DNA from: an uncultured Candidatus Saccharibacteria bacterium
Lineage (GTDB): Bacteria > Patescibacteriota > Dojkabacteria > J137
NCBI GenBank assembly: GCA_964393185.1
Contig: CAYMSO010000007.1
Coordinates: 930 to 64,929 of the forward strand
Direction of reading: 5' to 3'
Length of the DNA: 64,000 nucleotides
The translations under genes were made by a program, and so were the position numbers. Below are positions 11,162-33,113 of the stretch, one piece after another. The notes under the pieces are model-generated. The model was not told the origin of the DNA. It made no database searches and was given only the letters and a program-made list of their open reading frames with translations. Every line of letters starts with the position of its first letter. The stretch's first letter is position 1.

Positions 11162-11215
11162 GGTGGTCATAGCTAACTTGGTACCTGCCTGCTATCGCAG
11201 TCAGGCACTGAACGT
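11162..11215 (+). pseudogene. duplicated 5' portion of tRNA-His (degenerate)
   Basis: 11162-11183 (ggtggtcatagctaacttggta) matches the first 22 nt of tRNA-His (11263-11284) at 20/22, exactly 101 nt upstream. A ggcactg box is also shared. There is no T-arm or 3' acceptor strand. Confidence 0.5.
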
Positions 11216-11262
11216 AAATTTCTAGTATAGAGGCTATATTTAAATTGGAATGATACTTCGTT

Positions 11263-11339
11263 GGTGGTCATAGCTCAGTTGGTAGAGCGCCAGTTTGTGG
11301 CACTGGATGTCGAGGGTTCGAGCCCCTCTGATCACCCCA
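11263..11339 (+). tRNA. tRNA-His (anticodon GTG) with encoded G-1 and CCA
   Basis: Manual fold: g(-1)-gtggtca-ta-gctc-agttggt-agagc-g-ccagt-TT[GTG]GC-actgg-atgtc-gaggg-ttcgagc-ccctc-tgatcac-c-cca. Confidence 0.9.
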
Positions 11340-11345
11340 ATTTAT

Positions 11346-12818
11346 CTATTTCTCCACATTTTTTACGGATAACAATGTTAACCAAGGCTCCTTGAAGTTC
11401 AAGCGGATCTGCTTGTCTTCTAAAATGATGTTTTCACCAATTGCCTTAAAAAGTCGTGTACGTTCCTCCCAAGTTCCTTGCCAGAATATCTTTTCCAGAC
11501 TAAATGCATAGTCAAAGAATTTCTCAAACACATTTCGCACCTCATCACGGTTAAATCCAATACTATCCTGTATTTCGCTGAGTTCGACCTGTCTTCTGTT
11601 AAGGGGTTCACGATGTTCTTCATACTCTTCCTTGGATAATTCACCTTCCAGACGCATTGTCAGAAGCCTATCAAGCTTCTCAGAGATTTTATCGAGTTCG
11701 GCAGAGTTCTCCTTCCTTTTATTAATCTCAAAAACAAATTCTTCATCTAGCTTTCTAAGCACTATCTTCTTAAGTTTCTCTACCTGCTCCTGATTTAGTT
11801 CAACACTTTTAAGCTGCTCAACAATCATTGTTTCCATCTGGTCAACGGTTATTGGATCATTCCCGCAGTTACCGTTCTTCTTTGTGCAAACAAGATAATA
11901 GTACTCTCTACCACTCTTTTTAGTCTTTTTGTATGCAGTAATGCTAAGTCCGCATTTACCACACTTCATTAGCTTGCGATAAGGTAGATCATGTTTGCTT
12001 TGTGAAGGCTTCATTTTGTCATTAAGAATATCCTGCAAACGATACCATTGTGATTTTGAGATTAGCGGCTCCCACTTGCCGACAGTCTCAGGATAATCCC
12101 CATATCTGAATACACCGCAATAAACCGGATTCCTCAGTATTCTATGAACCATAGATTTAGTGTAAGCTTTACCTTTTTTAGTCTGCACTCCCATCTCTTT
12201 AAGTAATCTCCATGCCTGCGCACAATTCATCTTCTGATCAATAATCTTCTCAACCCACTGTGAATAAAAATGTCCCCACTTTGGATCTGGTGCAATAGTT
12301 TTAGTTCCTTTAACCTGACCGACATTTACATAGAAGGCTGGTGCAGAGGTAGGCCACTCGCCTCGCATAATCTTCTCTCTAATACCACGTTTTGTGTTGT
12401 AACTTAGCTCTTTTGAGTACTGTGAATTACTTCCTGATAAAACACCAAACATAATGTCATTTGTTGTGCTATCTAGTACCTCCATAGGTGTTCGTATCTC
12501 GATAATTTGCCTGTCAGTCAGCATCTGACCAATTATGCCGCTCTCTAACTGATTCCTGCTTATTCTATTCAAGTGCCAACAAGCAATTCGAGAACATTTA
12601 CCTGCCTTTATCTCATCAATCATTTTGTTGAATTCCTTGCGCTTATAAGGAATCTTAGCTGATTTCTCTTCTTGGAATATTTTTTTAATGGTAAGATTAT
12701 TTTTAGCAGCATACTCCTTCATTTCACGTATCTGAGCGGGAATTGAGAGTTGCTGCTTGCCTTTATCTTCGCTACTTTTGCGACAGTAAAGGAAGTACTC
12801 CTGTTTTTTTGACTCCAT
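11346..12818 (-). CDS. large serine recombinase
   Basis: Resolvase catalytic domain (YCRKSSEDKGKQQLSIPAQ; HLNRISRN), recombinase domain, zinc ribbon (CGKCGLSITAY...CTKKNGNCG) and a C-terminal coiled coil. 490 aa. Confidence 0.85.
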   Translation of the reverse strand: MESKKQEYFLYCRKSSEDKGKQQLSIPAQIREMKEYAAKNNLTIKKIFQEEKSAKIPYKRKEFNKMIDEIKAGKCSRIACWHLNRISRNQLESGIIGQMLTDRQIIEIRTPMEVLDSTTNDIMFGVLSGSNSQYSKELSYNTKRGIREKIMRGEWPTSAPAFYVNVGQVKGTKTIAPDPKWGHFYSQWVEKIIDQKMNCAQAWRLLKEMGVQTKKGKAYTKSMVHRILRNPVYCGVFRYGDYPETVGKWEPLISKSQWYRLQDILNDKMKPSQSKHDLPYRKLMKCGKCGLSITAYKKTKKSGREYYYLVCTKKNGNCGNDPITVDQMETMIVEQLKSVELNQEQVEKLKKIVLRKLDEEFVFEINKRKENSAELDKISEKLDRLLTMRLEGELSKEEYEEHREPLNRRQVELSEIQDSIGFNRDEVRNVFEKFFDYAFSLEKIFWQGTWEERTRLFKAIGENIILEDKQIRLNFKEPWLTLLSVKNVEK

Positions 12819-13026
12819 TCAATGTTGTTAATAATTTAAATATGCGGTTGTTTTCTACCGCAGTTAGTATCCATGTTGCCATAGTGTTTGATCTAGGTGA
12901 TAGTCTATTCTCTATAGGTATAAGTTAATAATTAAATAATTAAAATAAAAATAAGTAAGTATATACATAAATACCTATATAGCTTATAAGTAATATAGGT
13001 AAAGACTATAAATATAGGTTTTATTC

Positions 13027-13335
13027 TTATACTTCTTCATCTGGTGTATTATCAGGTTCTTCCCCAGACTCTACTTTGTCCCAGAATGCTTTATATTTAG
13101 CTAATAAAAAGTCCTCAAACTTTATTCTGTCTTCTTCGTTTGGTATCCAAAAACACTTCATCTTGCCGTATATAGCTGGTGGTGTAACAAATAGGCTGCC
13201 AGTTCTACGATTCTCCATTATTCGAATGTGTGTGACTCTAACGCCATAGTAATTTATAGCTGCAAGAGCTTTGATATAACCTTTGTTTTTGAGCTGTATC
13301 TCTACGGTCATTTCAGTTAAGTTAAGTTTGCTCAT
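13027..13335 (-). CDS. hypothetical protein (weak SpoVG-like resemblance)
   Basis: MTVEIQLKNKGYIKALAAINYYGVRVTHIRIMENRRTGSLFVTPPA loosely follows the SpoVG pattern (M.V......kA.asi.....v.v.dIrv......fV.mP). Tentative. Confidence 0.35.
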   Translation of the reverse strand: MSKLNLTEMTVEIQLKNKGYIKALAAINYYGVRVTHIRIMENRRTGSLFVTPPAIYGKMKCFWIPNEEDRIKFEDFLLAKYKAFWDKVESGEEPDNTPDEEV

Positions 13336-13415
13336 TTTTTATCTGTCTTAATATTTGAGCTACTATGATCTCTGCAATTACTTGCAACAGATCATCAAGA
13401 GTCTCCTGTTTTGGT

Positions 13416-13733
13416 TTAGTTTTGCTTCTTGCCATCTTTTATAAATTCTTCCCATTCTGTTGGAATGTATGCCTGCTTTCGACCCTCATCGAGATAGAAC
13501 CCCGAAACTCGTACTGCCCTAAGCACTTGTGAGCGATTCCAGACGAACTGTGGAGACCTGTAAAAGCCGTACTTGATGATGAAGTACAAAAGTAGATAAT
13601 CACCAATCAAGTTGATACTGGAGAGCTTCCTGAGAGCTTTAAAAACTCCTGAAAGCGATCTATTAGGATTGCTTGAAAGCAAATACTCCAGCTTTGGCAT
13701 TGCAGACTCCAATGACTGAACTGCACCCAACAT
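13416..13733 (-). CDS. hypothetical protein
   Basis: 105-aa ORF. No family recognised. Confidence 0.35.
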   Translation of the reverse strand: MLGAVQSLESAMPKLEYLLSSNPNRSLSGVFKALRKLSSINLIGDYLLLYFIIKYGFYRSPQFVWNRSQVLRAVRVSGFYLDEGRKQAYIPTEWEEFIKDGKKQN

Positions 13734-13830
13734 AATTTAAAAATAAAAATTTAAGTTGGTGCGATTATGCCAAGCTAGGAGCGTAAAGTCAGTGAATACC
13801 TAGTGGAACATTTGTGGAATTCTGGTGATA

Positions 13831-15126
13831 CTAATTTGTAGTTACTATTAGACCGTAACCGTATTTTGTTGAAGATTGGATTAGCTTCTTTAAAGCCTCT
13901 TTATTACTTGTGTCTTGAAATTTATCGATGAGATTTCTGCGAACGTATTTGATACTTTCACCGTATGCTTCATGTGCAGGCACGTCGTCAAACCTAGGGT
14001 TATAAATACCAATTGCTTCAGCAATATCTTGATAGCCTACAAAATTACCTTTATTCACAATAAGTAATTTAATAAACTTCCCTCCCTGACTTGCGGGACT
14101 TAAGGTTATATTTTCGCCTTTAAAGTTGAGTAGACTATTCGCTGGTTGATATTCAAGTCCTCCATATTCAACAGTACCTTTCAACATATCAACTAATTCA
14201 GCAATTATTGTACTGTTCTCGAGTTCAACTTCTTCTTTAAGAATCGCATATAAATCCTCAACTCTACTAAAATGAATTTCAAATTTCAGAGACTCACCAT
14301 TATTAAACTTCGAATGGAAATCTGACAATGCTTTGCGATATTCACCTAAGTATACTTTTAGTCCCTGAATAGTAATTGCCCTCATGCGAATTAAATACTC
14401 TACTACACTAGTGTACTTAATCTTTACTACTAGATATGGCTTCCCGAATTCATCATCTTCATTAGATTCATAGAAATCATATGATCTCACACTTAAATCT
14501 TGTTGCTTTATAAATTTAAAAATTTTTGATCTGCTACCTTCTCCTTTAACCTCAGTACGGAATAGATGCAAAAGTTTGATTACTTCAAGAGTCTCAGAAC
14601 TTGTTAGAGATTCCAGGTTAATACTCGGGTCTGTAAAAGTAACAGCAGGTAGAGTAATTGAAGTGAATATAGAAAGATCTTTTTCCGTTTTTCCAACTGC
14701 TTGATCTTCAACTTCGTTCTCAACTATATATTCATCTAGTAAATCTTTAGTTTCAATAATTCTAAATTCAAATGAACCATTTTTTAAATCTTTTATTACA
14801 TTTGGAAACTGTAATATTAGCCATTTAAAGTCAATCTCCTCATCTGGAATGTTAAAGATAAATTTATTATCCTCGAACCAAAATGACTTACTGATAGCAA
14901 ATTGTTTAAGTTGGAGTGGAATGCAAATAACTTGTCTATCGGTTAAAGGTGGTGTGGCTATGTAGTTGTCGGGTTCTATCATTGCGCCAAAAATTGCATT
15001 CGGAACGTAATCTTTATTCCTCTCTAAATAGGAGAGAAGGGAATTAAATTTTAGAATTGTTAGTAATTGTTCTTTGTTTAGCGTGTTCAAAGTATTACTA
15101 AATAATATATATAAATATTTATACAT
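13831..15126 (-). CDS. hypothetical protein with C-terminal OmpR/PhoB-type winged-helix
   Basis: The last ~90 aa (GYQDIAEAIG...ESIKYVRRNLIDKF...STKYGYGLIV) follow the trans_reg_C pattern (...vdvhi.rLRkKl....i.tv.g.GY.l). The N-terminal ~330 aa are unrecognised. Confidence 0.5.
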   Translation of the reverse strand: MYKYLYILFSNTLNTLNKEQLLTILKFNSLLSYLERNKDYVPNAIFGAMIEPDNYIATPPLTDRQVICIPLQLKQFAISKSFWFEDNKFIFNIPDEEIDFKWLILQFPNVIKDLKNGSFEFRIIETKDLLDEYIVENEVEDQAVGKTEKDLSIFTSITLPAVTFTDPSINLESLTSSETLEVIKLLHLFRTEVKGEGSRSKIFKFIKQQDLSVRSYDFYESNEDDEFGKPYLVVKIKYTSVVEYLIRMRAITIQGLKVYLGEYRKALSDFHSKFNNGESLKFEIHFSRVEDLYAILKEEVELENSTIIAELVDMLKGTVEYGGLEYQPANSLLNFKGENITLSPASQGGKFIKLLIVNKGNFVGYQDIAEAIGIYNPRFDDVPAHEAYGESIKYVRRNLIDKFQDTSNKEALKKLIQSSTKYGYGLIVTTN

Positions 15127-15295
15127 CTTTTAGATTTTCAATACTGCCAACTGTTACTTCAATTTTCTCTCATTCCCATCATTTTTTATCTCCGGGATGC
15201 GACCTAAATGCCTTCCGGGCAATCATATTGAAGATTGTGACTTTTTATTCAACTGCGACATTTCAAGGCTACAAATTCGTCACAATTCTCAGTTT

Positions 15296-17539
15296 TCAGC
15301 TTGCATTTATGGCTTGTTCCAAAACCTGATAATGCTGTGGGAAAACAGCCTTTATCATTTCCAAAAGGTAATTTGTATTTTTACGTGCTTCTTCAACTAA
15401 AGACGGATCAAATCCCTTTCCGGTAATATGCGATTGATCATTGCAAAACTTGTAAATCGCAGTTTTTTTATTCTCATCAAAATCGATGCCTTGCAGTTTA
15501 GTGTAAACGGACTCGCTGTTAGGAACCATAAACATAAGGAATGTGTCTAGAACTTTACGTGCTACATTAGGCATATGGTAGGCAGATTCAATAGTCCCCT
15601 CATCAGGACCGAACTGATAGAGTACCTTAAACAGGTATTGGTATTCACTATGATAATCTTGAAGTAAATTATCTAACTTATCAATTGAAGCCTGTCTTTG
15701 TTCATTAACGTATTTATTTTTAATCATGTAATAACTTGCTTTAGGCTTATTACTGCGATGTTCCAACCAATTTAATAATAATCGTAAAAATTCATAGTTA
15801 TGCGTAAACACAAACATCTGCATGCAGTTGCTTACAGCATTTTTTATAAAAGAGAACGCTTGGAATAAAGAATTTGAGTCTAAGCTGGATATAGGATCGT
15901 CAATCACAATAATACCTTCCTCAGATTTAAAATTCTGATCCTTTAGTTGAATTACAAAGTAAACAAAAGCTATGGCTGTCTTCTCACCTTCACTCAACAT
16001 TGTTGCAGGTTTATCTCCTCTAAGAATAAGATAACCTTCACCATCAACTTTAAATACAAGTTCGCTTCTTCCTAAGAATGTTTCTAAGTATGAATTTATC
16101 TCGTCACAGGCTTTATGGGCGCTTGTTACCAATTTTTTATTTTCACTAATCCTGTTTTGAATAGTTTGAATTGATTCATTTTTTCCAGCTTCACCATAAG
16201 TAAGAGTTCTTTGTAACTCTTCACACCCCTCCAGTTCCTTGTCGATTGCAACGACTTCATCATATATCGTACTTAAAAAATGCTGTTCTATCGCATCTTT
16301 AGCAGACTGTTTTGCTTTATCAAACTCTTGAGTCTTCTTATTATGAGAGTTAATTATGGTATTAAAACTTTCGGTTTTAGCTAAAAGGTGACTAACGTCT
16401 ACTAATTTTTGAGGGATTAGTTTTTCGGTAGTTTTCGTCTTCTTTGACTCCAATTCTTTACCAACTTCTGCAATTGCTGAGAGTATTTTAGTTTTTTCTA
16501 AAGTAAAAGACCCAAATTCATTTCTGTAGCTATCCTCTAATTCTTTATAAAAATTTGCTACATCTGGTGCATTTACAGATTCAAGACCGCGATAGAGTGA
16601 TCGTAATCTTTCTAACAATGTATCTATCTCACCTTTTAACTTTTGATCAGCATCGTTAAAGTGATTTGAGAGATCTTTAAGCCTATTTTCCGCTACGTTA
16701 TTTCCACAAAATTCACATGACTTACTATCGTGTTCCTTATGTATTTGCATTCCAGTTTCAACCCAGTTTGATATATCGGCATTGTCTTTAAGTCTTTCAA
16801 TCACAATAGCTTCAACAGTTTTACCTAACAAGGACTTTATTTCAGTTTGTATGCTAGCTAGGGCGACTTCAAATTTCTCACGATTATCCGCACTTTTAGG
16901 CAACTTAATTTCACTTATTTCCGGTTTAACATCTTGAACTACAGTTTGAAGATGTCTGTTAAGATCTTCTTCGCTTAATTCTGCTTTTCCACGCATCTTT
17001 TGAAATGCTTTCTCAGCATGTGTTTTTGTATAGTTTCTAATTAAGGAGCCTTTTGTACCAACACTAATCGTTTTCGCGATCTCAGTGAATTTGCTACCTC
17101 TAGTTTTTTGAAGGCCTGCCATATTGTCTTTACATTCCTTTACTTCAGTATGTACCTTTGTCAGTTTTGCTTCGTCTTTTTCAATTTGCTCAACTAACTC
17201 CTGGTTCTCTTCTCCCAAAATAAATATGCCTTCAGCTTTACCTTCAAGTAATTTAATATTTTTATTTACATAATCCTGATTAAAGATTCTAATCTTATGT
17301 GGATATCGATCTTGAAGTTTATATTTGTTGCTTTTATCATCCTGCACTTCAAATTCTGCATCAGGATATTCTGTGTTTTCTAGATTACTTAAAGCGTAGA
17401 ATAAACGGGTAAGTGTAGTTTTACCGCAACCATTCCAACCATAAATCAGATTAAACTGTTTAAACTCAGGCATAGAGCTGTCCCACTTAAAATCTTCAAA
17501 GATGCCAAATTTTTTTATTTTATTTATACGTTTAATCAT
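15296..17539 (-). CDS. RloC/PrrC-family (AAA_13) ATPase with coiled-coil CxxC zinc-hook insert; candidate anticodon nuclease
   Basis: Walker A (GWNGCGKTTLTRLF), a long helical insert with SCEFCGNN (a CxxC hook as in Rad50/RloC), signature LSEGEKTAIAF, Walker B IIVIDDPISSLD and FTHN. The C-terminal region has NVARKVLDTFL...NDQSH. It overlaps hsdS by 4 nt. Confidence 0.6.
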   Translation of the reverse strand: MIKRINKIKKFGIFEDFKWDSSMPEFKQFNLIYGWNGCGKTTLTRLFYALSNLENTEYPDAEFEVQDDKSNKYKLQDRYPHKIRIFNQDYVNKNIKLLEGKAEGIFILGEENQELVEQIEKDEAKLTKVHTEVKECKDNMAGLQKTRGSKFTEIAKTISVGTKGSLIRNYTKTHAEKAFQKMRGKAELSEEDLNRHLQTVVQDVKPEISEIKLPKSADNREKFEVALASIQTEIKSLLGKTVEAIVIERLKDNADISNWVETGMQIHKEHDSKSCEFCGNNVAENRLKDLSNHFNDADQKLKGEIDTLLERLRSLYRGLESVNAPDVANFYKELEDSYRNEFGSFTLEKTKILSAIAEVGKELESKKTKTTEKLIPQKLVDVSHLLAKTESFNTIINSHNKKTQEFDKAKQSAKDAIEQHFLSTIYDEVVAIDKELEGCEELQRTLTYGEAGKNESIQTIQNRISENKKLVTSAHKACDEINSYLETFLGRSELVFKVDGEGYLILRGDKPATMLSEGEKTAIAFVYFVIQLKDQNFKSEEGIIVIDDPISSLDSNSLFQAFSFIKNAVSNCMQMFVFTHNYEFLRLLLNWLEHRSNKPKASYYMIKNKYVNEQRQASIDKLDNLLQDYHSEYQYLFKVLYQFGPDEGTIESAYHMPNVARKVLDTFLMFMVPNSESVYTKLQGIDFDENKKTAIYKFCNDQSHITGKGFDPSLVEEARKNTNYLLEMIKAVFPQHYQVLEQAINAS

Positions 17540-18666
17540 ATGTAGAAGTACTTGTCTAAGAGTCCTGACTTAGTTTTTACATAAGCTGTCTGTTTTTCAG
17601 TATTTAAAGACTGTAGTTTTTTAAAGATTCTTAATGAATTTAGAAATTTAGCTTGATCACTTAATGGTGGTACTGGTACTTCGATTGCCTCAAGTTTGCT
17701 CAGCCCTAAAGTTTTATTTCTACCGGCACTCCCAGGGGATGCTTTTCTGATATCCTCTAAACCTTTTGTGGAAAGGAAGTAAAACCATAAAAACTCGGGT
17801 TCAATAATTTCACTATTACAAACACAACTTATGAATCTATGTGATCCATATCTCTGATGATCTTCTGACTGTACAACAGCGATAGCTCCTTCCCAGGCAA
17901 AAACATTGCTAAATAACAAATCACCTTCATGTATCTCATAAAGTTGTTTTGTACCTATATTTTCAGCTTTTAATGATGGTTTATGGAAGGTACCTTTACC
18001 GAAACTTCTTATTCCGAGTTCTGGGTACTCACTTCCTTTTTGAACAACTACTTTTCTTCTTACAATTGGTGCAATTTCAGACATTTTATAAGTCTTGGCT
18101 TTTGTATTTAGTTCTTCGAAAAGGACATGGAGGATTTTGTTTCCGTGGATTAATAATGCGTTATCATTAGATTCAAAGCCTTTTAAATAATTAAGGCTAT
18201 TGGAGACAAAGGTCGCAACCTCTTTCTGATAATCCAAAGACGGAACATCCAATTCGAAATTCAAAAATTTATCTTCATCAAGATATTTACGGTTTGTAGT
18301 TCCTGAGCTAGCTTTAGAACAAATATCTATGAAGCTAGAACTACTTGTAAATAGATTAAACCAGTTAATATCTATCAATTTCGGATCAAAATTGAAAGTC
18401 CAAAAATTTCCAGTAATTATCGCTCCATCTAGTTGCATTGGTACTATGCCAAATGCACCATTTCTAGCGTCAATTTTAGACAATAAAAACTGATTTTTTT
18501 TAATTAGGAATTGCTTCTTTGTACCTATCTCTCTTCCCGGAGTTCTGTCCCTGAGAGCTAAGCCTTTATTGTTTGTTCTTATGGTAACCCTTGAATAACT
18601 TATGTCATCCACAATACTGATAGGTTCTTTTATTCTTTTTAAGAATTCCCCGATTTTTCTAGTCAT
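17536..18666 (-). CDS. hsdS: type I restriction-modification specificity subunit HsdS
   Basis: 376 aa, two-TRD architecture, positioned between hsdM and the RloC-like gene. Overlaps hsdM by 8 nt. Confidence 0.8.
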   Translation of the reverse strand: MTRKIGEFLKRIKEPISIVDDISYSRVTIRTNNKGLALRDRTPGREIGTKKQFLIKKNQFLLSKIDARNGAFGIVPMQLDGAIITGNFWTFNFDPKLIDINWFNLFTSSSSFIDICSKASSGTTNRKYLDEDKFLNFELDVPSLDYQKEVATFVSNSLNYLKGFESNDNALLIHGNKILHVLFEELNTKAKTYKMSEIAPIVRRKVVVQKGSEYPELGIRSFGKGTFHKPSLKAENIGTKQLYEIHEGDLLFSNVFAWEGAIAVVQSEDHQRYGSHRFISCVCNSEIIEPEFLWFYFLSTKGLEDIRKASPGSAGRNKTLGLSKLEAIEVPVPPLSDQAKFLNSLRIFKKLQSLNTEKQTAYVKTKSGLLDKYFYI

Positions 18667-20098
18667 TTATTAAACTTTTTTTAAATTCCTCAAATAATTT
18701 ATTAGTTGAATTAACAAGTTCACTTATCTTTTGTAGATGAGTTTCTATTGATTCTTCCTTCAAATCTTCATTAGTCTTAGGGTTTTTAATATCTAAGTTA
18801 TAGTTTTGAGATTGAATCTCTTTCACTTCAATGCGCCATGCGTACTGATTTGTTTCTCGGTTTTTCCACCATTCTTTGAGATTCTTAAATTCCTCTTTTT
18901 GTATTGGCTTTGTTTTTGAGTACGATCTATAACCATCAGGATATGGTAACTCGTAATACCATATAAATTTAGTTGGCTCGCCTTTATTTAGAAATATTAG
19001 ATTAGTTTTTATTTCAGTGTAGGGTGAGAAAACTCCGGCGGGTAGGCGGACAATAGTATGTAGATTAAACTTCTCCAGTAGTTCCTGTTTTATTCTCGTC
19101 TTCACGCCTTCGCCAAATAGAAAACCATCCGGCAATACAACGCCTGCACGTCCTCCATCCTTAAGCATCTCCATGATTAACACCAAGAACAAGTCTGCTG
19201 TCTCTTTTGTCTGATATTGTTTGGGGAAGCCTTTAGCAATATTGTCGGCTTCTATTCCGCCAAAAGGAGGATTTGTTACAACAACATCAACTCTATCCTT
19301 TGCAGTAATTTCCCGTAGAGTAACTGCAAGTGAATTGTCTCTTCTTACATTTAATGGAGCTTCTATGCCATGTAAAATAAGATTTGTCATCGCAAGCATA
19401 TGAGGTAGTGGCTTCTTTTCAATGCCATATATAGAACTTTGCAAAACCTTCTCATCTTCAGGAGTTTTTACATCATTCTCACGAACATGAGTCAATGAAT
19501 CGATCAAAAATCCTCCAGTACCACAAGCTGGGTCTAAAATCTTTTCGCCAAGTTTTGGATTAACCATTTCAACAATGAATTTTGTTACAGCTCTTGGGGT
19601 ATAGAATTCTCCAGCATTACCAGCACTCTGTAAATCTTTCAGTAGCTTCTCGTAAATGTCATTGAAGATATGCGTTTGTTTGCTGTTGTTGAAATCAATC
19701 TCGTTATCGATCACATTAATAACCTGCCTCATGAATGTTCCCGACTTCATGTAGTTATAGCTGTCTTGGAATACTTCTTTAACAATGTAGCCACGAGGGT
19801 CGTCACCTTCTTGCCAATTCATCTCTTTTAATCCCGGGAAGAGCTTATTATTAATAAAATCGATCAATTCATCGCCTGTAATACCAGCATCATCCTTAGC
19901 CCAATTTCGCCACCTAAGCGATTCTGGCAGCGGTGATTTGTAATTTGAGTCTAGTAGCTCATATTCTCGCTCTTTATCATCAAATATTTTTAGGAAGAGC
20001 ATCCAAGTAAGCTGTGAGATACGTTGCGCATCACCATCTACACCTGTATCTTTGCGCATTATGTTTTGAATCGTTTTTACCAGATTTGTTAGTGCCAT
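18659..20098 (-). CDS. hsdM: type I restriction-modification N6-adenine DNA methyltransferase HsdM
   Basis: HsdM N-terminal domain, AdoMet motif ILDPACGTGGFL, and catalytic VVTNPPFGG. Confidence 0.9.
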   Translation of the reverse strand: MALTNLVKTIQNIMRKDTGVDGDAQRISQLTWMLFLKIFDDKEREYELLDSNYKSPLPESLRWRNWAKDDAGITGDELIDFINNKLFPGLKEMNWQEGDDPRGYIVKEVFQDSYNYMKSGTFMRQVINVIDNEIDFNNSKQTHIFNDIYEKLLKDLQSAGNAGEFYTPRAVTKFIVEMVNPKLGEKILDPACGTGGFLIDSLTHVRENDVKTPEDEKVLQSSIYGIEKKPLPHMLAMTNLILHGIEAPLNVRRDNSLAVTLREITAKDRVDVVVTNPPFGGIEADNIAKGFPKQYQTKETADLFLVLIMEMLKDGGRAGVVLPDGFLFGEGVKTRIKQELLEKFNLHTIVRLPAGVFSPYTEIKTNLIFLNKGEPTKFIWYYELPYPDGYRSYSKTKPIQKEEFKNLKEWWKNRETNQYAWRIEVKEIQSQNYNLDIKNPKTNEDLKEESIETHLQKISELVNSTNKLFEEFKKSLIND

Positions 20099-20104
20099 AT
20101 TTGT

Positions 20105-22501
20105 TTACGCTTGCATATAAATAAATTGCTTCATCTCCTGAACAGCTTCTACATACTGTTCTCTACCACCAAAGAATTGAATAATCTCAATTGGTGAACC
20201 GTATTGATTTATTGGCTGAACTTTTAAGACTTCCATATCCTCAAGTGGCTTCAATCCTTCGTCTGCATATTTCTCTAACAATGCCTCCAAAACCTTCCTA
20301 GCTTCTTCGCCATACTTGGCAAAATAATGTCGCTTTTTTACACTCTCAGCTCTCTCACTTCTTGTAAGTGCAGGTTTGTCAAAAGCAATATGCAAAACCA
20401 TATCGAAAGGATCAAGGTCTTTGCCTACTTCTCGTTTTAATTCATCAAAAAACACACCTTGCGCTTCAAGTTCTTCAATAACTGCAGTTTTGCGTTCTGC
20501 ATCCTGCCAGTCATTTAAGAATTCATCTAAAGATCGATACTTTTGCAGTAAACTCTTCTTGGTATAATCTTTCAGCGATTCGGTGGTGAGTTTACCATTC
20601 TCATCGTAGTATTGGACAGTCTCGTTAATGACCTGCACGTCAACACCTTCAACGTAATACTTACGCGGTCTATCGTTAACTTCTCCAGTTATTGAGATAT
20701 CTGGCTTTTCTACAGCAAGTTGAGCTACTTTTATAACCTCAGCTTCCTGTTCTTCTTCTGGTGACACCACCATCTCTTCCTCGCTTCCTTCAAAATTTGC
20801 TTCTTCGCCTTCAGTCTTCTCAACGCTGCTGATTGCTGGTCCATCGAATGCTGGATCTGCAAATAATTTAGTAGCCTGCCTAAAATCCATAATAGTGAAG
20901 TAGTATTTACCAAAATCAGGATCAATTCTCGTACCACGCCCTATAATCTGTTTAAATTCAGTCATTGAATTGATATTGCTATCAAGGACTATTAGCTTAC
21001 AAGTTTTTGCATCAACTCCAGTGGTTAGAAGCTTAGAAGTAGTTACAACTACCGGATACTTCTTCTCAGGGTCTATGAAGTTGTCTAGTTCATTTTTACC
21101 TTCTTCATTATCTCCGGTTATTCGCATAACATATTTTGCATTCTCAGAGACTAGATCGCCATTCTCATTAATTATTGTCTGTCGCATTCGTTCAGCATGT
21201 TCTATATCTACACAAAAGACTATTGTCTTAGCAAAGCGATCGGTATTCTTTAAGAACTCTGTGATCTTTTTAGCAACTGTTTTGGTTCTCTCATCAAGAA
21301 CAATTCTCCTATCAAAATCTTTTACATTGTATTCTTCGTCAGGAATCTCATTACCATATTTGTCGATTTGTCCTTCAAATGGTCTAAATCCACCTGCATC
21401 TTTATCTAAAGTAATACGCATAACTTTGTATGGTGCAAGGAATCCATCTTCAATCCCTTGTTTTAGCGAGTAGGTGTAAATTGGTTCTCCGAAGTATTCA
21501 ATGTTATCAGCACCTTTCTCCTGTTTGGGGGTAGCGGTCATTCCTATTTGAGTAGAAGCGTTGAAGTATTCCAAAATCTCTCGCCATGCAGAATCATCTG
21601 CTGCACTTCCTCTATGAGCTTCGTCAATAATGATCAAATCAAAAAAATCTCTAGGGAATTGCTTATAAATCTTTTGATACTCCTCAGTTCCAGTAATGCT
21701 TTGATAAAGCCCAACAAATACTTCATATGCTGCAAATTTTGTAATCTCAAATTTACCTCGATTGATCTTTGTAGCTTTATCTCCAAACGGTGCAAAGTCC
21801 CGTCTTAATGGATCATCTACAAGAATGTTCCTGTCAGCAATAAATAGAATTCTCTTCTTAGCTCTAGACTTCCAAAGTCTCCACATAATCTGGAATGCGG
21901 TGAACGTCTTGCCAGTTCCGGTAGCCATTACGAGCAATAACCTGTCTTTGCCTTTAGCAATTGCTTCAACAGTTCTATTAATCGCAACTTCTTGGTAGTA
22001 ACGAGGTTTTTTGCTTGTTGGAGTGTAGTAGTAATCCTGTGTAACTATTTGCTCATCTTCAGTTGTTAATCCCTTCCAAATTTTGAATCGTTGGTAAAGT
22101 TCTTCGGGAGTAGGGAATTGCTGCAAAGATATCTCACGTTCAATAGCACCTTCAGTTTTGGTTTTATCATGTTCAACAAACCCATCACCGTTACTTGAGA
22201 ATACAAAAGGGATATCAAGAATTTCGGAATATTCCATGCCCTGCTGCATACCTGCTCCAACGCTGTGGTTATTGTCTTTGGCTTCAATTATTGCAATTGG
22301 AAGGTTTGATTTGTAGTAAAGGATGTAGTCTGCCTTTTTACCTTTACCTCGCTTTACAGTCTCACCTTTTACTATGATACGACCATCTGTAAAATATACC
22401 TGTTCCCTGATTTGCTTCTGTAGATCCCAACCTGCTTGTTGTAATGCAGGTAATATGAATTTAGTACAAATGTCCGCTTCGCTTAGTTGTTTTTTATCCA
22501 T
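20105..22501 (-). CDS. hsdR: type I restriction endonuclease subunit HsdR
   Basis: N-terminal PD-(D/E)xK (ADYILYY...IAIIEAKD), helicase motifs MATGTGKT and IIDEAHRG, and the motif VI region QIIGRGTR. 798 aa. Confidence 0.9.
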   Translation of the reverse strand: MDKKQLSEADICTKFILPALQQAGWDLQKQIREQVYFTDGRIIVKGETVKRGKGKKADYILYYKSNLPIAIIEAKDNNHSVGAGMQQGMEYSEILDIPFVFSSNGDGFVEHDKTKTEGAIEREISLQQFPTPEELYQRFKIWKGLTTEDEQIVTQDYYYTPTSKKPRYYQEVAINRTVEAIAKGKDRLLLVMATGTGKTFTAFQIMWRLWKSRAKKRILFIADRNILVDDPLRRDFAPFGDKATKINRGKFEITKFAAYEVFVGLYQSITGTEEYQKIYKQFPRDFFDLIIIDEAHRGSAADDSAWREILEYFNASTQIGMTATPKQEKGADNIEYFGEPIYTYSLKQGIEDGFLAPYKVMRITLDKDAGGFRPFEGQIDKYGNEIPDEEYNVKDFDRRIVLDERTKTVAKKITEFLKNTDRFAKTIVFCVDIEHAERMRQTIINENGDLVSENAKYVMRITGDNEEGKNELDNFIDPEKKYPVVVTTSKLLTTGVDAKTCKLIVLDSNINSMTEFKQIIGRGTRIDPDFGKYYFTIMDFRQATKLFADPAFDGPAISSVEKTEGEEANFEGSEEEMVVSPEEEQEAEVIKVAQLAVEKPDISITGEVNDRPRKYYVEGVDVQVINETVQYYDENGKLTTESLKDYTKKSLLQKYRSLDEFLNDWQDAERKTAVIEELEAQGVFFDELKREVGKDLDPFDMVLHIAFDKPALTRSERAESVKKRHYFAKYGEEARKVLEALLEKYADEGLKPLEDMEVLKVQPINQYGSPIEIIQFFGGREQYVEAVQEMKQFIYMQA

Positions 22502-22703
22502 TGGCAGGTTTTAACGAGATAAGATTATCAACAGTTACACCAAGTGCTTTGGCAATCTTCTGTAAATGTTCAAGTCTAGGGCTAACAATTACTCCAATCT
22601 CAATTTTTGTGAGCGTTGAGTAACTAACACCCGATAATTTGGCTAAATCCCTTTGAGTCAGGCTTTTTTGCTTCCTTAGTTGTTTTATGTTTGCTCCTAG
22701 CAT
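22494..22703 (-). CDS. XRE-family HTH protein (possible controller) heading the type I operon
   Basis: IKQLRKQKSLTQRDLAKLSGVSYSTLTKIE is a classic Cro/C1 HTH. Its stop overlaps the hsdR start by 8 nt. Confidence 0.8.
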   Translation of the reverse strand: MLGANIKQLRKQKSLTQRDLAKLSGVSYSTLTKIEIGVIVSPRLEHLQKIAKALGVTVDNLISLKPANG

Positions 22704-22781
22704 GGTGTAAAACTATCCAATAATTGATATTCTACTACAACTATTCGTACAAATAAATGCTAATAGTATTAAGAGGGGAAT

Positions 22782-23276
22782 TTAAAGTTTGAATTGCAAA
22801 CTTTCAGCTCTACAGAAATCCCAAACACCCATACAACGTATATTCAGTTCAGTACATAAATTTGGAAGGCGGGGTATATTTAGTGATGAGTTCGCTGGAT
22901 TATTCTCAGTGGTAAAAACTACTAATTGGTTTGCTTTAGAGTAACAAGCGATAACCGGATCTGCAGCATTCTTATGCCCTGAAGCCAAAAGGTTATATTT
23001 ATTTACAAGCTTCTCTATTTCAGTTGAGGTGACATCATCGACTTCTAAAAAGATTTTTTTGTTGTCCTTTAACCATTCTTTAAATGATTTATCCTCTTGT
23101 TCTTCTTTCATGAGTTCTTCATAAACGTCAATGACTGAAACCATTCTGCCACTGTTAACAAGCACGTTAAAGTGTTCCCAGAGTCCAGGTAAAATATCTT
23201 TCGGGAAGCGACCTTTCTCTTCCTTCCAGAGATCAAAAATTACATTTGTATCAAAACAATACTTATAATCAGCCAT
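22782..23276 (-). CDS. DUF4411 (PIN-like) protein
   Basis: YCFDTNVIFDLW... AADPVIACYSKANQLVVFTTE ... IPRLPNLCTELNIRC follows the DUF4411 pattern (Y.lDtN... aDpfvIA.A...vVT.E...kIP.vC...gi.c). Confidence 0.6.
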   Translation of the reverse strand: MADYKYCFDTNVIFDLWKEEKGRFPKDILPGLWEHFNVLVNSGRMVSVIDVYEELMKEEQEDKSFKEWLKDNKKIFLEVDDVTSTEIEKLVNKYNLLASGHKNAADPVIACYSKANQLVVFTTENNPANSSLNIPRLPNLCTELNIRCMGVWDFCRAESLQFKL

Positions 23277-24441
23277 AGTTAGACATTAGAGATTCAATAA
23301 TTGGGGTGTGCTTTATATTTGTATCTAAATATTTTGACACTTCGTAGTAAGTTATTTTATTCACCCGGTAAGCATCAAAAACGTCTAAAACAAATCCCCT
23401 GCTATTCCTGGAGATCTCATTTCTCTGATATAGGTGGTAGCCTTTAGGTATAAATATCTTCTTATCTTTCTGCCTCTCTTCATATTCAGCAACCAATTCC
23501 ATAATATGCTTTCTTCTATTTTTGAATTCGCTTTCACCCATAAACCCATTATCGTATAGTCTTCTGATAATCACTTCTTCACTAACGCAGAGGTCTCTTG
23601 CAATTTTTTTTATATACTTATCTCGACTATCTTTATCGCTGAAATTTACAAAGTTTTTAAGCTCTCCCAGTGGCACAAGGAAGTTACCAGCAAAAGCATT
23701 AGCAAATACCTCCTCAGGCGTGGTTTTGTCATTGTATACATTGTCGTCAAAGATTTCGAAGTACCCATCATCTTTTAAAACAACATGAGCTATCTCATGG
23801 AATAAAGAGAATGTCTTACCTGCATCACTATCATTTTTGTTTAATGTGATTACTACATACTCACCATCTGTTAAACAAAATGCCCTTCCGTCCTTCTTTT
23901 TGTCGAAAGAATACTCAACAATGTAAAATCCCTTACTTTCAAGTAAGTCTCTCCAATTCTCGAATCCAGCCTTTTTGTCCTTCCAAGTTTTCTGTGTCTC
24001 GACATCCAGACCTATCCACTTTCTAAACTCTAGTGCTGCATTTACAGGATCCGTAAATGAATTTTTTAGTTCGTTAATAGCTTCCCAATTAGGTTTCCGA
24101 CCTTCCAAATCTGCAGCAAGTGCCACGATTCGTTCTGCGTTATCCAATGCTTCAAATAATTTGCGTGATTCTTCGTTCTGGAGTGATTCTTCATAGATAC
24201 GTCTGAATTTTTTAGGAAGTGTTTTTTTGTGTGGAATATTCTCTAGGAATAAGATTGTCCAAGGACGTCCGTAGGTCTTTGCAATTTTACGTGCTGTTTT
24301 AATATCTATTTCTATGCCTTCCTCTTCCCATAGTTTCAAAGTAGCTACATCAATCTTTAACTTCTTTGCGGCAATATCTAACGACATGTTCAAGTGAAGT
24401 CGTAATTCTTTGAGAATTGTGGGTCTAGCTTTTATTGCCAC
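23269..24441 (-). CDS. XRE HTH + ImmA/IrrE-family zinc metallopeptidase (DUF955) fusion
   Basis: N-terminal HTH (LRLHLNMSLDIAAKKLKIDVATLKLWE) and the metallopeptidase HExxH motif FSLFHEIAHVVL. Overlaps the DUF4411 gene by 8 nt. Confidence 0.75.
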   Translation of the reverse strand: MAIKARPTILKELRLHLNMSLDIAAKKLKIDVATLKLWEEEGIEIDIKTARKIAKTYGRPWTILFLENIPHKKTLPKKFRRIYEESLQNEESRKLFEALDNAERIVALAADLEGRKPNWEAINELKNSFTDPVNAALEFRKWIGLDVETQKTWKDKKAGFENWRDLLESKGFYIVEYSFDKKKDGRAFCLTDGEYVVITLNKNDSDAGKTFSLFHEIAHVVLKDDGYFEIFDDNVYNDKTTPEEVFANAFAGNFLVPLGELKNFVNFSDKDSRDKYIKKIARDLCVSEEVIIRRLYDNGFMGESEFKNRRKHIMELVAEYEERQKDKKIFIPKGYHLYQRNEISRNSRGFVLDVFDAYRVNKITYYEVSKYLDTNIKHTPIIESLMSNYG

Positions 24442-24649
24442 TTTAGAATTGAATAAAAATTTTACTATCTATATTATGACAAAAGTTCGCAAGCAACTAA
24501 AGTGAAATAATCTTGAGGTAGTTCTAGCCAATATAAATCTTAGCTTAATTAAAGCTCATTTTTGTTTTAAATAATCATCAACTGCGCATTGATTTTTAAA
24601 GTCTTTACGGGTTAAAATTTAAGCGTATAAATAATTTAGGGGAGCCATG

Positions 24650-24886
24650 CTAACGGATCGCTTTACTATTAGTTCGTTCCAAAGTATTTTGAAGAGGTGA
24701 CCCCAAATAAGAATTTAACCCTTCGTAAGCCTCAAAATGTTCCTGTAATGTATATCCAGTAACGATTTTATCCTTCATTGTGATGTTCAGAAATACTAAT
24801 TTGACCAATTGGTCGACTAAGTAGGCATTATCTGTTGTTTCGATAGTACCAGTAATGTCTTTGAAGAAGTTCAGTAAGGTTACATA
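24650..24886 (-). pseudogene. possible C-terminal gene remnant (~78 codons, no credible start)
   Basis: My translation: ...LLNFFKDITGTIETTDNAYLVDQLVKLVFLNITMKDKIVTGYTLQEHFEAYEGLNSYLGSPLQNTLERTNSKAIR*. It is open only from an in-frame TAG, and the only Met gives 39 aa. No family recognised. Confidence 0.2.
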
Positions 24887-25141
24887 ATAATGCTACTAAT
24901 GCCTCATAAAGATTAATCAATTTTTAATTTGTTTAAGTGTTATTGTTAAGGCTCTCTTTTTCCAAAATTAATAACTTCTGCAAGATCTTATTCGCTTCAA
25001 GTTAATTTAATATCTAACTAGTTGTTGCTAAGTACCATAAACAATCTTATAATTCATGCTAATTCCATTTAAGATTTGTACTGCAATACAATGCAAATCT
25101 ATAAATTTATTGATATAACTAGCTCAACTTACTAATAATAT

Positions 25142-26820: not shown

Positions 26821-26824
26821 TTTT

Positions 26825-27376: not shown

Positions 27377-27384
27377 AGTTCTAT

Positions 27385-29235: not shown

Positions 29236-29240
29236 AGCAT

Positions 29241-29313: not shown

Positions 29314-29322
29314 TTTATAAAA

Positions 29323-32033: not shown

Positions 32034-32055
32034 AATATTTTTTACTAAAAGACCA

Positions 32056-33110: not shown

Positions 33111-33113
33111 TCT

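What the first reader, a model, noticed from the sequence alone, without database searches (positions are those of the whole stretch)
11162..25141. ~13-kb serine-recombinase island next to tRNA-His carrying only defence-type cargo
A large serine recombinase gene ends 6 nt from the CCA of tRNA-His. Twelve minus-strand genes follow: three unknowns, an RloC-like gene, hsdS, hsdM, hsdR, an XRE gene, and a DUF4411 + HTH-ImmA pair. Then comes a 700-bp gene-free junction and a switch to plus-strand housekeeping genes. By eye the island is somewhat more GC-rich than its flanks. There are no phage structural or conjugation genes. It therefore looks like a minimal integrative element whose whole payload is immunity. 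I could not find a convincing att repeat at the far end, which fits serine recombinases because they do not create long duplications.
Basis: partly seen in the sequence, partly recalled or inferred. Interest (0 to 1): 0.6.

Follow-up and report, generated by a model that had tools for sequence, protein, structure and literature searches.

The report
Serine-recombinase defence cassette at tRNA-His
[quoted passage not shown] It landed on top of the wreck of an earlier cassette, and both junctions can now be read to the base.

Summary
The island is real, and its ends are now mapped. An intact large serine recombinase (LSR) gene, 11346-12818 on the minus strand, stops 6 nt after the CCA of tRNA-His.

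The far end lies inside the "gene-free" 700 bp:
- A 7-bp direct repeat, ACCCCAA, sits at 11334-11340 and 24700-24706. These are its only two plus-strand copies in the window.
- Just outside the far copy is the last ~60 codons of a second, unrelated LSR gene (24707-24886).
- Just inside it is a 90-nt arm that is 93% identical over its first 30 nt to the far end of a sister element in another host. That similarity starts exactly at TGGGGT.

The element is therefore 13,366 bp. Its backbone is the LSR, a SpoVG-like gene and two unknowns. Its cargo is type I R-M, an RloC-like AAA_13 ATPase, an XRE regulator and a DUF4411/HTH-M78 pair. Sister elements keep the backbone but carry other defence genes.

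The right flank is not housekeeping. Positions 24.9-33.7 kb hold older accreted accessory DNA that ends in another LSR arm scar.

Of 67 metagenomic relatives of this LSR, 54 abut a convergent tRNA.

In the arm, the LSR reading frame continues for 28 conserved codons. The recombinase's C-terminus therefore probably changes on integration.

I class this as a new variant of a known kind (SCC-like or tycheposon-like).

The parts
11264..11339 (+). tRNA-His(GTG). Its 3' end is the B arm of the attachment site.
   Evidence: ARAGORN; Rfam tRNA at 65.5 bits. It is 93-95% identical to the tRNA-His of relatives that have no recombinase beside it, so the whole tRNA is host-type.
11334..11340 (.). attL core, ACCCCAA: discriminator base, CCA and one further base.
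   Evidence: One of only two plus-strand copies in the 64-kb window. In all occupied sites, similarity to the host tRNA ends right after the CCA.
11346..12818 (-). Intact large serine recombinase, 490 aa.
   Evidence: Pfam Resolvase 5.8e-20, Recombinase 1.5e-15, Zn_ribbon_recom 4e-8. PHROG integrase 8.8e-77. A118 integrase structures 1e-12. YCRKSS motif and four zinc-ribbon Cys are present. A TAG stop lies 3 codons before the WG (TGGGG) core that relatives read through.
13027..13335 (-). Backbone gene 1: SpoVG-like 102-aa protein directly upstream of the LSR. Candidate directionality or regulatory factor (inferred).
   Evidence: Homologues sit next to the LSR in L057, L063, L066 and L061. The profile hits SpoVG structures 2ia9 and 2i9z at E 2e-4 to 4e-4 over nearly the full length.
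13416..13733 (-). Backbone gene 2: conserved 105-aa protein of unknown function.
   Evidence: 80%, 56% and 36% identical homologues at the same position in L057, L066 and L063; also present in L158.
13831..15126 (-). Backbone gene 3: 431-aa protein of unknown function.
   Evidence: 30% identical to the 398-aa gene of L057. 47% identical to P0279 in L158 at the same position. No Pfam, PHROG, PADLOC, NCBIfam or PDB hit. The AF2 model was poor, pLDDT 44.
15296..17539 (-). AAA_13 ATPase, 747 aa, RloC/PrrC-like. It overlaps hsdS by 4 nt.
   Evidence: Pfam AAA_13 7e-136. PADLOC PDC-S06 9e-256 and PrrC 4.8e-12 on residues 515-733. Walker A GCGKT, CEFC hook, LSEGEK and IIVIDDP are seen in the translation.
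17536..22501 (-). Type I restriction-modification operon: hsdS 17536-18666, hsdM 18659-20098, hsdR 20105-22501.
   Evidence: Pfam. PADLOC Specificity_I 3.5e-93, MTase_I 1.8e-209, REase_I E=0.
22494..22703 (-). XRE-type HTH, 69 aa, overlapping the hsdR start. Part of the conserved far-end module.
   Evidence: HTH_3 1.5e-18. PADLOC control protein and HTH_VI. 80% nt identity to the XRE at the far end of L158.
22782..24441 (-). DUF4411 (PIN-like) gene at 22782-23276 plus HTH-Peptidase_M78 (ImmA/IrrE-like) gene at 23269-24441. A toxin-antitoxin or Abi-like pair, present as an extra cargo module.
   Evidence: Pfam. PADLOC RmrA-like 1e-13. NCBIfam spr1629 repressor/antitoxin 2e-12. Absent between the arm and XRE in L158.
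24619..24705 (-). P arm of the element, with a 28-codon open frame (WGHLFKILWNELIVKRSVSMAPLNYLYA*) in the LSR's reading phase.
   Evidence: 28 of 30 nt identical to L158 2622-2651 and 80% over 91 nt, with similarity starting exactly at TGGGGT. Against L158, 8 codons differ synonymously and 7 non-synonymously, the stop is at the same place, and the other frames are closed.
24700..24706 (.). attR core, ACCCCAA.
   Evidence: Second and last plus-strand copy in the window. It lies exactly between the old LSR remnant and the P arm.
24707..24886 (-). Remnant (last ~60 codons) of a second, different LSR gene. It marks the older element that previously abutted tRNA-His.
   Evidence: phmmer against 1.84 billion representatives gave 35 hits, best 8.8e-20, all at the extreme C-termini of 540-560-aa proteins. 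Those proteins are LSRs by Pfam. tblastn 5e-15 to 5e-23. 41% identical to the G006 LSR that abuts tRNA-His.
24887..33632 (.). Older accreted accessory DNA: heptose-type genes, second ArgRS plus second tRNA-Arg(TCT), SIS, queuosine salvage, aldo-keto reductase, deaminases, S51 peptidase.
   Evidence: GHMP kinase is absent from 26 of 26 relatives. The ArgRS is a divergent extra copy. Gene 32011-32505 is 89% aa and 80% nt identical to a gene between two LSRs near tRNA-His in G010. Pfam annotation.
33633..33731 (-). Second P-arm scar: a 35-codon LSR tail remnant with core ACCCA at 33723-33727. It marks the outer edge of the whole accessory region.
   Evidence: tblastn against P0005 residues 489-521, 51.5% identity, E 1.3e-5. 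Ranked first in the window at 29 bits with a P-arm matrix. The same tail is found in P0005, P0017 and the G014:C8 LSR. Dus and ATP synthase follow.

Best explanation
Positions ~11,341-24,706 are a 13,366-bp integrative cassette. A large serine recombinase moved it by recombining the element's attP with the 3' end of tRNA-His. The exchange falls within the shared core ACCCCAA (TTGGGGT on the recombinase strand).

The element has a conserved backbone. At one end are a 431-aa unknown, a 105-aa unknown, a SpoVG-like protein and the LSR. At the other end are a ~90-nt arm and an XRE regulator. Between them lies a swappable payload of defence genes. Here the payload is a type I R-M system with an RloC/PrrC-like AAA_13 ATPase and a DUF4411/HTH-M78 pair.

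The element inserted at a site already occupied by an older LSR element. Only the last ~60 codons of that older recombinase survive, and its ~9 kb of metabolic cargo now lies further in. This is tandem accretion at a tRNA hot spot.

Shown:
- the gene content;
- both junctions;
- homology of the backbone and arm in elements from other hosts;
- tRNA targeting across the LSR family.

Inferred:
- that this LSR catalysed the insertion;
- that the element can still excise;
- how it travels between cells, since it carries no transfer genes. Transformation, or hitch-hiking on the conjugation-like LSR island elsewhere in the same genome, are guesses.
For: 1.

2. The far junction rests on three observations.
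- ACCCCAA occurs on the plus strand only at 11334 and 24700.
- Outside it, 24707-24886 encodes an LSR C-terminus. The close homologue P0122 continues at this very point (after ...NSHLG) into tRNA antisense (WKMGFEPTT), while the window diverges there.
- Inside it, the arm matches L158 at 28 of 30 nt, starting exactly at TGGGGT. The sequence upstream of the core is unrelated: a hydrolase gene in L158 and the old LSR here.

3. Sister elements show mobility and modular cargo.
- P0002 (85% aa; 78% nt over 1.6 kb) overlaps tRNA-His by 12 nt in a host with a different tRNA T-arm and a 6PGD flank.
- L057 has hsdM next to the backbone.
- L158 carries a type IIG R-M enzyme plus OLD-TOPRIM and UvrD genes.
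- L066 carries Dcm plus EcoRII-C, L063 carries Mrr at tRNA-Asn, and L061 carries N6_N4 MTase plus ResIII.

4. In the same bacterial family, LSRs abut tRNA-His in G003, G004, G005, G006 and G014, while seven other genera show no intact LSR ORF there. G003 and G004 are different genera, yet their LSR junctions are 80% nt identical.

5. Of 67 metagenomic LSR relatives with sequence beyond the stop codon, 54 have a tRNA within 200 nt. All 54 are convergent and most overlap the LSR. Twelve tRNA types are involved. Two more LSRs in this genome overlap tRNA-Leu and tRNA-Glu.

6. Composition is atypical.

7. Independent Logan contigs from the same sample span both junctions.
Against: - No empty site or circular junction was observed for this species.
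- The window's LSR has a TAG stop three codons before the core that relatives read through, so this copy may be impaired.
- No recombination directionality factor is identified. The SpoVG-like candidate is only a guess based on position.
- The 7-mer repeat alone would not be significant; about 1.8 copies per strand are expected by chance.
- In the wider LSR family, cargo is not exclusively defence.
Confidence: 0.85

Rival explanations
1. The mobile unit is one composite 22.4-kb element (11,341-33,727) bounded by the tRNA-His junction and the outer arm scar at 33.7 kb. On this reading the 24.7-kb junction is an internal scar carried along from an earlier host.
For: - The arm at 33,633-33,731 is the best match in the window to the arms and tails of P0005, P0017 and G014:C8, which are relatives of the intact LSR.
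- Everything between tRNA-His and 33.7 kb is accessory.
- Composite excision from outer sites is known for SCC arrays (PMC11470126).
Against: - The sister element L158 ends at the arm homologous to 24,705 and is followed directly by host genes. The unit with this backbone therefore ends there.
- The outer arm has three G rather than four and would be out of phase with the present LSR.
- GC differs between the two halves, 0.357 against 0.319.
Confidence: 0.1
2. The island is a fixed, vertically inherited defence locus, and the recombinase is a relic or a domesticated gene rather than the agent of insertion.
For: - The LSR has a premature TAG relative to its kin.
- No excision product was seen.
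- LSR-tRNA-His linkage recurs across genera of the family.
Against: - The LSRs at tRNA-His in different genera are only 25-46% identical and carry different cargo.
- Seven genera have no intact LSR ORF next to tRNA-His.
- An 85% identical LSR sits in a host with a different tRNA T-arm and flank.
- For comparison, the best AtpD match anywhere is 76%.
- Catalytic motifs and the zinc ribbon are intact.
Confidence: 0.03
3. The junctions are assembly artefacts of a metagenome-assembled genome with 6% estimated contamination.
For: - The genome is a 21-contig MAG with 6.3% contamination.
- Logan contigs break at 11,437 and 19,215.
Against: - An independent Logan assembly runs continuously from the left flank through tRNA-His into the LSR (L056), and from hsdM through the 24.7-kb junction into the GHMP kinase cluster (L055).
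- The same junction architecture recurs in unrelated assemblies.
Confidence: 0.02

Closest known systems
Staphylococcal/enterococcal cassette chromosomes (SCC, ECC) moved by Ccr large serine recombinases
   Same: - Non-phage, non-conjugative cassettes.
- Inserted by an LSR at the 3' end of a conserved gene.
- Short shared core instead of long repeats.
- Tandem composite arrays.
- Frequent R-M and other defence cargo (PMC11470126, PMC6222049).
   Different: - The target is a tRNA 3' end rather than rlmH.
- There is a single LSR rather than a ccrAB pair.
- The LSR scores far below the Ccr family cut-offs (NCBIfam CcrA 67.6 bits against 700).
- The host is a Patescibacteria-type bacterium.
- The LSR reading frame runs across the att core.
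Tycheposons of Prochlorococcus (Hackl et al., bioRxiv 10.1101/2020.12.28.424599)
   Same: - Small cargo-carrying integrative elements in a streamlined genome.
- tRNA genes are the targets.
- New arrivals push older ones inward.
- Degenerate integrases are left as scars.
- Some relatives carry primase/helicase modules (G005, L073).
   Different: - 910 of 937 tycheposons use tyrosine recombinases and are flanked by partial tRNA copies.
- Here the recombinase is an LSR and no partial tRNA copy is left at the far end.
- No recognised replication gene is present in this copy.
Phage serine integrases (A118, phiC31, Bxb1, SPbeta)
   Same: - Same domain architecture.
- Closest solved structure is the A118 integrase C-terminal region.
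- Short att sites.
- The integrase gene lies next to attP.
   Different: - No phage genes are present.
- The att core lies inside the 3' end of the recombinase reading frame and coincides with the tRNA CCA end.
- I know of no characterised serine integrase with this arrangement (own knowledge; four literature searches found none).
Integration-dependent protein truncation: mycobacteriophage BPs repressor/integrase, SSV1 integrase partition (recalled from own knowledge)
   Same: An att core inside a coding frame, so that integration changes the C-terminus of an element-encoded protein.
   Different: Those systems use tyrosine recombinases. Here only the last ~28 codons of an LSR are swapped, and any regulatory role is untested.
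prr/rlo loci: PrrC or RloC anticodon nucleases embedded in type I R-M operons
   Same: - An AAA_13 ATPase with a coiled-coil insert and a CxxC hook.
- Translationally coupled to hsdS inside an hsdRMS operon.
   Different: The best PADLOC family is the candidate system PDC-S06. The nuclease triad and tRNA cleavage were not tested.

Membership tests
Large serine recombinase (serine integrase) | N-terminal resolvase catalytic domain with the serine nucleophile and conserved Arg residues | tested here: met
   Pfam Resolvase 5.8e-20 on residues 9-155. YCRKSS and WHLNRISRN are seen. Y11, R13, S15, R85 and R88 are invariant across 23 clade members.
Large serine recombinase (serine integrase) | Recombinase domain followed by a zinc-ribbon domain | tested here: met
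   PF07508 1.5e-15 and PF13408 4e-8. Four Cys are present: CGKCG...CTKKNGNCGN. A118 integrase structures 1e-12.
Large serine recombinase (serine integrase) | Short att sites with only a few bp of shared core and no long duplication | tested here: met
   7-bp ACCCCAA at both ends. No tRNA fragment at the far end.
Large serine recombinase (serine integrase) | Catalyses attP x attB integration; excision needs a directionality factor | not testable with these tools
No RDF is identified; the SpoVG-like neighbour is only a candidate.
SCC-type cassette (Ccr recombinases) | Recombinase belongs to the CcrA, CcrB or CcrC families | tested here: not met
   NCBIfam CcrA 67.6 bits against a cut-off of 700; CcrB 53.3 against 900.
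Tycheposon | Element flanked by a full and a partial copy of the target tRNA | tested here: not met
   No partial tRNA-His 3' copy anywhere in the window.
Tycheposon | tRNA-targeted, tandemly accreting cargo elements with degenerate integrases left as remnants | tested here: met
   Old LSR remnant at 24707-24886 and a second arm scar at 33.7 kb. Tandem LSRs also occur in G005, G010 and L061.
Prophage / ICE / IME | Capsid, terminase, relaxase or type IV secretion genes | tested here: not met
   None found in Pfam, PHROGs or NCBIfam for any of the 11 ORFs. The 431-aa protein is not related to the Replic_Relax gene of the tRNA-Leu island.
Type I restriction-modification | HsdR, HsdM and HsdS encoded together | tested here: met
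   Pfam and PADLOC hits for all three.
RloC / PrrC anticodon nuclease | AAA_13 ATPase head with a coiled-coil insert and a CxxC zinc hook (RloC), linked to type I R-M | tested here: met
   AAA_13 7e-136. CEFC is flanked by long helical sequence. 4-nt overlap with hsdS.
RloC / PrrC anticodon nuclease | C-terminal nuclease domain with the Arg-Glu-His triad, and tRNA cleavage | tested here: inconclusive
   The PADLOC PrrC model matches residues 515-733 at 4.8e-12, but the triad was not aligned residue by residue and no activity data exist.
SpoVG | SpoVG fold or family membership of the 102-aa backbone protein | tested here: inconclusive
   The single sequence has no Pfam hit. A five-member profile hits SpoVG structures at E 2e-4 over ~80 residues.

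The most novel reading that the evidence does not exclude
In this LSR lineage the crossover core (TGGGG, the reverse complement of the tRNA discriminator base plus CCA) lies inside the recombinase's own reading frame. In the excised circle, the LSR would carry a conserved ~28-31-residue C-terminal tail encoded by the other end of the element. Examples are WGHLFKILWNEL... here and WGQLLDSxLNxxIDF... in relatives. Integration would replace that tail with tRNA-antisense codons or a stop. The recombinase would thus exist in two forms that report integration state, giving a built-in switch of activity, stability or directionality. This has not been described for serine integrases.
Probability: 0.35. 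Interest if true: 0.8.

Novelty: new variant of a known kind. Interest (0 to 1): 0.62.

Why it matters
- It gives base-level att sites and a defined backbone for a family of mobile defence cassettes in Patescibacteria. Mobile elements and the routes by which these bacteria gain immunity are poorly charted (PMC12455944 reports type I R-M islands there but no mechanism).
- It shows that a large LSR clade systematically targets tRNA 3' ends, a habit usually credited to tyrosine integrases. At least 12 tRNA types are used.
- It provides natural pairs of recombinase and tRNA-end target that could be tested as integration tools.
- The frame that runs across attP offers a simple, testable idea for how a serine integrase might sense whether it is integrated.

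Tried and rejected
- A genome-contig scan with the LSR found only one hit, at 24% identity.
- An empty-site search in 26 family relatives failed. There is no synteny around tRNA-His, and flank genes are absent or elsewhere.
- Searches for a tRNA-His 3' fragment at the far end found none.
- A generic repeat search gave nothing usable apart from the partial 5' tRNA copy.
- An HMM of the intact LSR clade's C-terminus did not detect the 24.7-kb remnant (E 4.1). An all-against-library phmmer search was needed, because the remnant belongs to a different LSR family.
- A matrix of P0005-type arms does not recognise the 24.7-kb arm beyond its core (rank 2141). The arm was confirmed only through the sister element L158.
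- Walking out from the 85% sister element through its hsdM found no longer contig.
- The structure prediction of the 431-aa protein was too poor to search with (pLDDT 44).
- Profile comparisons with Replic_Relax and with the small ORF of the tRNA-Leu island were negative.
- A cargo tally over 19 metagenomic loci was diluted by host genes and does not show a defence-only family.
- Logan contigs of the 85% sister element end 29 nt inside tRNA-His. This hints at a graph branch at the CCA end but has other explanations.

Full report
**What is there.**
The window is contig C7:930-64929 of a 1.35-Mb, 33% GC, 21-contig genome. The best named matches of its ATP synthase beta subunit are Candidatus Dojkabacteria and other Patescibacteria, at about 72% identity. 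The host is therefore very probably a Patescibacteria (CPR) bacterium from a sparsely sampled lineage.

tRNA-His(GTG) lies at 11264-11339. Convergent with it, a 490-aa ORF at 11346-12818 has the Resolvase, Recombinase and zinc-ribbon domains of a large serine recombinase (LSR). Its catalytic motifs and four zinc-ribbon cysteines are intact. Its stop codon is 6 nt from the CCA.

Ten more minus-strand ORFs follow:
- three with no family hit (102, 105 and 431 aa);
- a 747-aa AAA_13 ATPase (PADLOC PDC-S06 at 9e-256; the PrrC model matches its C-terminal third);
- hsdS, hsdM and hsdR;
- a 69-aa XRE protein;
- a DUF4411 PIN-like protein;
- a 390-aa HTH plus Peptidase_M78 protein.

No phage structural, relaxase or secretion family was found.

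**Composition.**
The element averages 0.357 GC against 0.332 for the genome (SD 0.016 for 5-kb windows). The hsdM/hsdR stretch is at the 99th percentile for GC and the 98.8th for tetranucleotide distance. This supports foreign origin but is not decisive.

**The recombinase family targets tRNA 3' ends.**
- In the same bacterial family, LSR homologues of 25-46% identity abut or overlap the 3' end of tRNA-His in five other genera (G003, G004, G005, G006, G014). Seven genera have no intact LSR ORF there. In two of those seven (G015, G007) the sequence after the CCA looks like antisense coding and may be a remnant.
- G003 and G004 belong to different genera, yet their LSR junctions are 80% identical at the DNA level.
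- A search of 5.8 billion proteins found a clade of about 25 LSRs at 39-85% identity. The contexts are as follows:
  - the 85% relative overlaps tRNA-His by 12 nt, in a host with a different tRNA T-arm and a 6PGD flank;
  - a 46% relative overlaps tRNA-His by 66 nt;
  - another 46% relative overlaps tRNA-Asn by 40 nt.
- Of 80 metagenomic loci at 28-42% identity, 67 have sequence beyond the stop codon. Of these, 54 carry a tRNA within 200 nt. All 54 are convergent, most overlap the LSR by 10-110 nt, and twelve tRNA types are involved.
- Two further LSRs in this same genome overlap tRNA-Leu and tRNA-Glu.
- Across the clade the LSRs end in ...NFKKPY(12-16 residues)WG. The TGGGG encoding WG is the reverse complement of the tRNA-His discriminator base plus CCA. 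After WG comes either tRNA-antisense translation (WGGWRDLNP...) or a non-tRNA tail.

**The far end.**
No tRNA fragment exists at the far end, as expected for a serine recombinase. The 700-bp "gene-free" gap nevertheless holds the junction.

- An 80-residue open frame on the minus strand (24653-24892) was searched against 1.84 billion representative proteins. It gave 35 hits, the best at 8.8e-20. All lie at the extreme C-termini of 540-560-aa proteins, and those proteins are LSRs by Pfam.
- tblastn places the remnant at 24886-24707, at 57-61% identity. It is 41% identical to the C-terminus of the G006 LSR that abuts tRNA-His.
- One close homologue continues directly after ...NSHLG into tRNA antisense (WKMGFEPTT). 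The window reads ...NSYLG, TTGGGGT, and then diverges.
- So an older, different LSR element once sat against tRNA-His, and something was later inserted between the two at TTGGGGT.

The sole homologue of the 431-aa backbone protein (47% identical) lies on a 34.7-kb contig, L158. That contig carries the same backbone with different cargo, and its far end is present. There the sequence TGGGGTCACCTCTTCAGAATACTCTGGAAC follows 8 nt after a host hydrolase gene. The window has TGGGGTCACCTCTTCAAAATACTTTGGAAC at 24705-24676. That is 28 of 30 identical, and 80% over 91 nt, while nothing upstream of the TGGGGT is similar.

The element therefore ends at the core ACCCCAA at 24700-24706. This core repeats the ACCCCAA at 11334-11340, and these are the only two plus-strand copies in the window. 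The element is 13,366 bp.

**Backbone and cargo.**
The 102-aa, 105-aa and 431-aa genes recur next to the LSR in sister elements. A profile of the 102-aa family hits SpoVG structures at E 2e-4. The far-end arm and the XRE gene are also shared with L158, at 80% nt identity.

The payload between these conserved parts differs from element to element:

| Element | Payload |
|---|---|
| This window | type I R-M, AAA_13 ATPase, DUF4411/HTH-M78 pair |
| L158 | type IIG R-M enzyme, OLD-TOPRIM ATPase, UvrD helicase (Gabija-like by domain content; not scored with PADLOC) |
| L057 | hsdM |
| L066 | Dcm plus EcoRII-C |
| L063 | Mrr |
| L061 | N6_N4 methylase plus ResIII |

"Payload is immunity" holds for this element and for most of its close kin. 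It does not hold for the wider LSR family. Nor does it hold for the other LSR islands in this genome, which carry a TraG-like ATPase with a DUF11 surface protein, or glycosyltransferases with a Replic_Relax protein.

**The right flank is not core genome.**
- The GHMP kinase at 25142 is absent from all 26 family relatives.
- The ArgRS at 27385-29235 is only 27% identical to the genome's other ArgRS. Relatives have a single ArgRS, about 30% identical to the window's, so it is of the other type. The window copy is followed by a second tRNA-Arg(TCT).
- Gene 32011-32505 is 89% aa and 80% nt identical to a gene lying between two LSRs near tRNA-His in G010.
- At 33633-33731 a minus-strand frame encodes a 35-residue tail that is 51% identical to the last 33 residues of P0005 (E 1.3e-5). 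It is the top-scoring arm-like site in the window (29 bits).
- Beyond it lie an unannotated 236-aa ORF, then Dus and the ATP synthase operon.

The simplest reading is tandem accretion: tRNA-His, then the current element, then the wreck of an older element (or elements) with about 9 kb of metabolic cargo, then an outer arm scar, then core genes. Tandem LSRs in the same orientation near tRNA-His in G005, G010 and L061 fit this. Whether the outer arm belongs to the old LSR or to a third element, and whether the 22.4 kb can move as one unit, is not resolved.

**A frame across attP.**
In the LSR's phase, the arm at 24705-24619 reads WGHLFKILWNELIVKRSVSMAPLNYLYA*. The L158 arm reads WGHLFRILWNQLVVKQSLSMTPLNYLGA*. 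Between the two:
- 8 codons differ synonymously;
- 7 differ non-synonymously, mostly by conservative changes;
- the stop codon is at the same position;
- the other two frames are closed.

A different but mutually conserved tail, WGQLLDSxLNxxIDFxxNxxNIxxLL, ends P0005, P0017 and the 30%-identical G014:C8 LSR. None of these is joined to a tRNA.

This argues that in the excised circle the LSR is translated across attP into a short tail, and that integration removes the tail. In the window's copy a TAG stop lies three codons before the core, so this copy would not make the tail. It may therefore be impaired. The functional meaning of the tail is inference only.

**Comparison with known systems.**
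The element works like an SCC-type cassette. It is LSR-driven, uses the 3' end of a conserved gene, has a short core, forms tandem arrays and carries defence cargo (PMC11470126). It also resembles a tycheposon, being a tRNA-targeted element that accretes in a streamlined genome (bioRxiv 10.1101/2020.12.28.424599). It is a member of neither family: the LSR is far below the Ccr cut-offs, and no partial tRNA repeats flank it. Type I R-M islands in Patescibacteria have been reported without a mechanism (PMC12455944). Four literature searches found no description of tRNA-end-targeting LSR cassettes in this phylum, nor of an LSR frame crossing attP. The search was limited to open-access text.

**Limits.**
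- The crossover dinucleotide within the 7-bp core is not known.
- The directionality factor and the route of cell-to-cell transfer are unknown.
- The taxonomic placement rests on best-hit names.

Noticed in passing
window 27385-29314: A second ArgRS, 27% identical to the genome's other copy on C4. All 26 family relatives have a single ArgRS, ~30% identical to this one. It is followed 5 nt later by a second tRNA-Arg(TCT), and the pair sits inside the older accreted region in the middle of a heptose-type gene cluster.
   Followed up: partly
window 11145-11215: A partial copy of the 5' end of tRNA-His plus its leader (39 nt at 77%; 22 nt at 91%), followed by a 9-bp-stem hairpin, about 100 nt upstream of the real tRNA. 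Similar 5' partial copies lie upstream of tRNA-His in G005 and G017. This is unexplained.
   Followed up: partly
L009 19106-19227 (G005): Between the LSR and tRNA-His there is an extra 24-nt copy of the tRNA 3' end (T-loop to CCA) inside the LSR's last codons. A 24-nt spacer and then the full tRNA follow. This may be a scar of another recombination event.
   Followed up: no
G000 C9:31268-32857 (L155) and C14:15579-17148 (L156): Two more LSRs in the same genome overlap tRNA-Leu(TAG) by 52 nt and tRNA-Glu(CTC) by 38 nt. Their islands carry Replic_Relax plus glycosyltransferases, and a TraG-like P-loop ATPase plus a 1044-aa DUF11 surface protein. A fourth LSR on C12 has no tRNA beside it.
   Followed up: partly
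window 32011-32505 / L050 6528-6976 (G010): A deaminase-fold gene shared at 89% aa and 80% nt identity with a different genus, where it lies directly after one LSR and before another near tRNA-His. This looks like recent horizontal transfer.
   Followed up: partly
window 25142-27376: An HddA-like GHMP kinase, a 239-aa unknown and a histidine phosphatase at only 0.29 GC (3rd percentile of the genome). The kinase has no homologue in any family relative.
   Followed up: partly
L051 6653-7617 vs L053 60-1024 (G003, G004): LSR genes abutting tRNA-His in two different genera are 80% identical at the DNA level, with nearly identical junction sequences. This implies transfer of an element between genera.
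   Followed up: partly
L057 and L060 contig ends: Logan contigs of the 85% sister element in two samples stop 29 nt inside tRNA-His. A k=31 assembly graph would do this if it branched at the CCA end, for example where occupied and empty sites coexist. A tRNA segment shared between species would give the same result.
   Followed up: no
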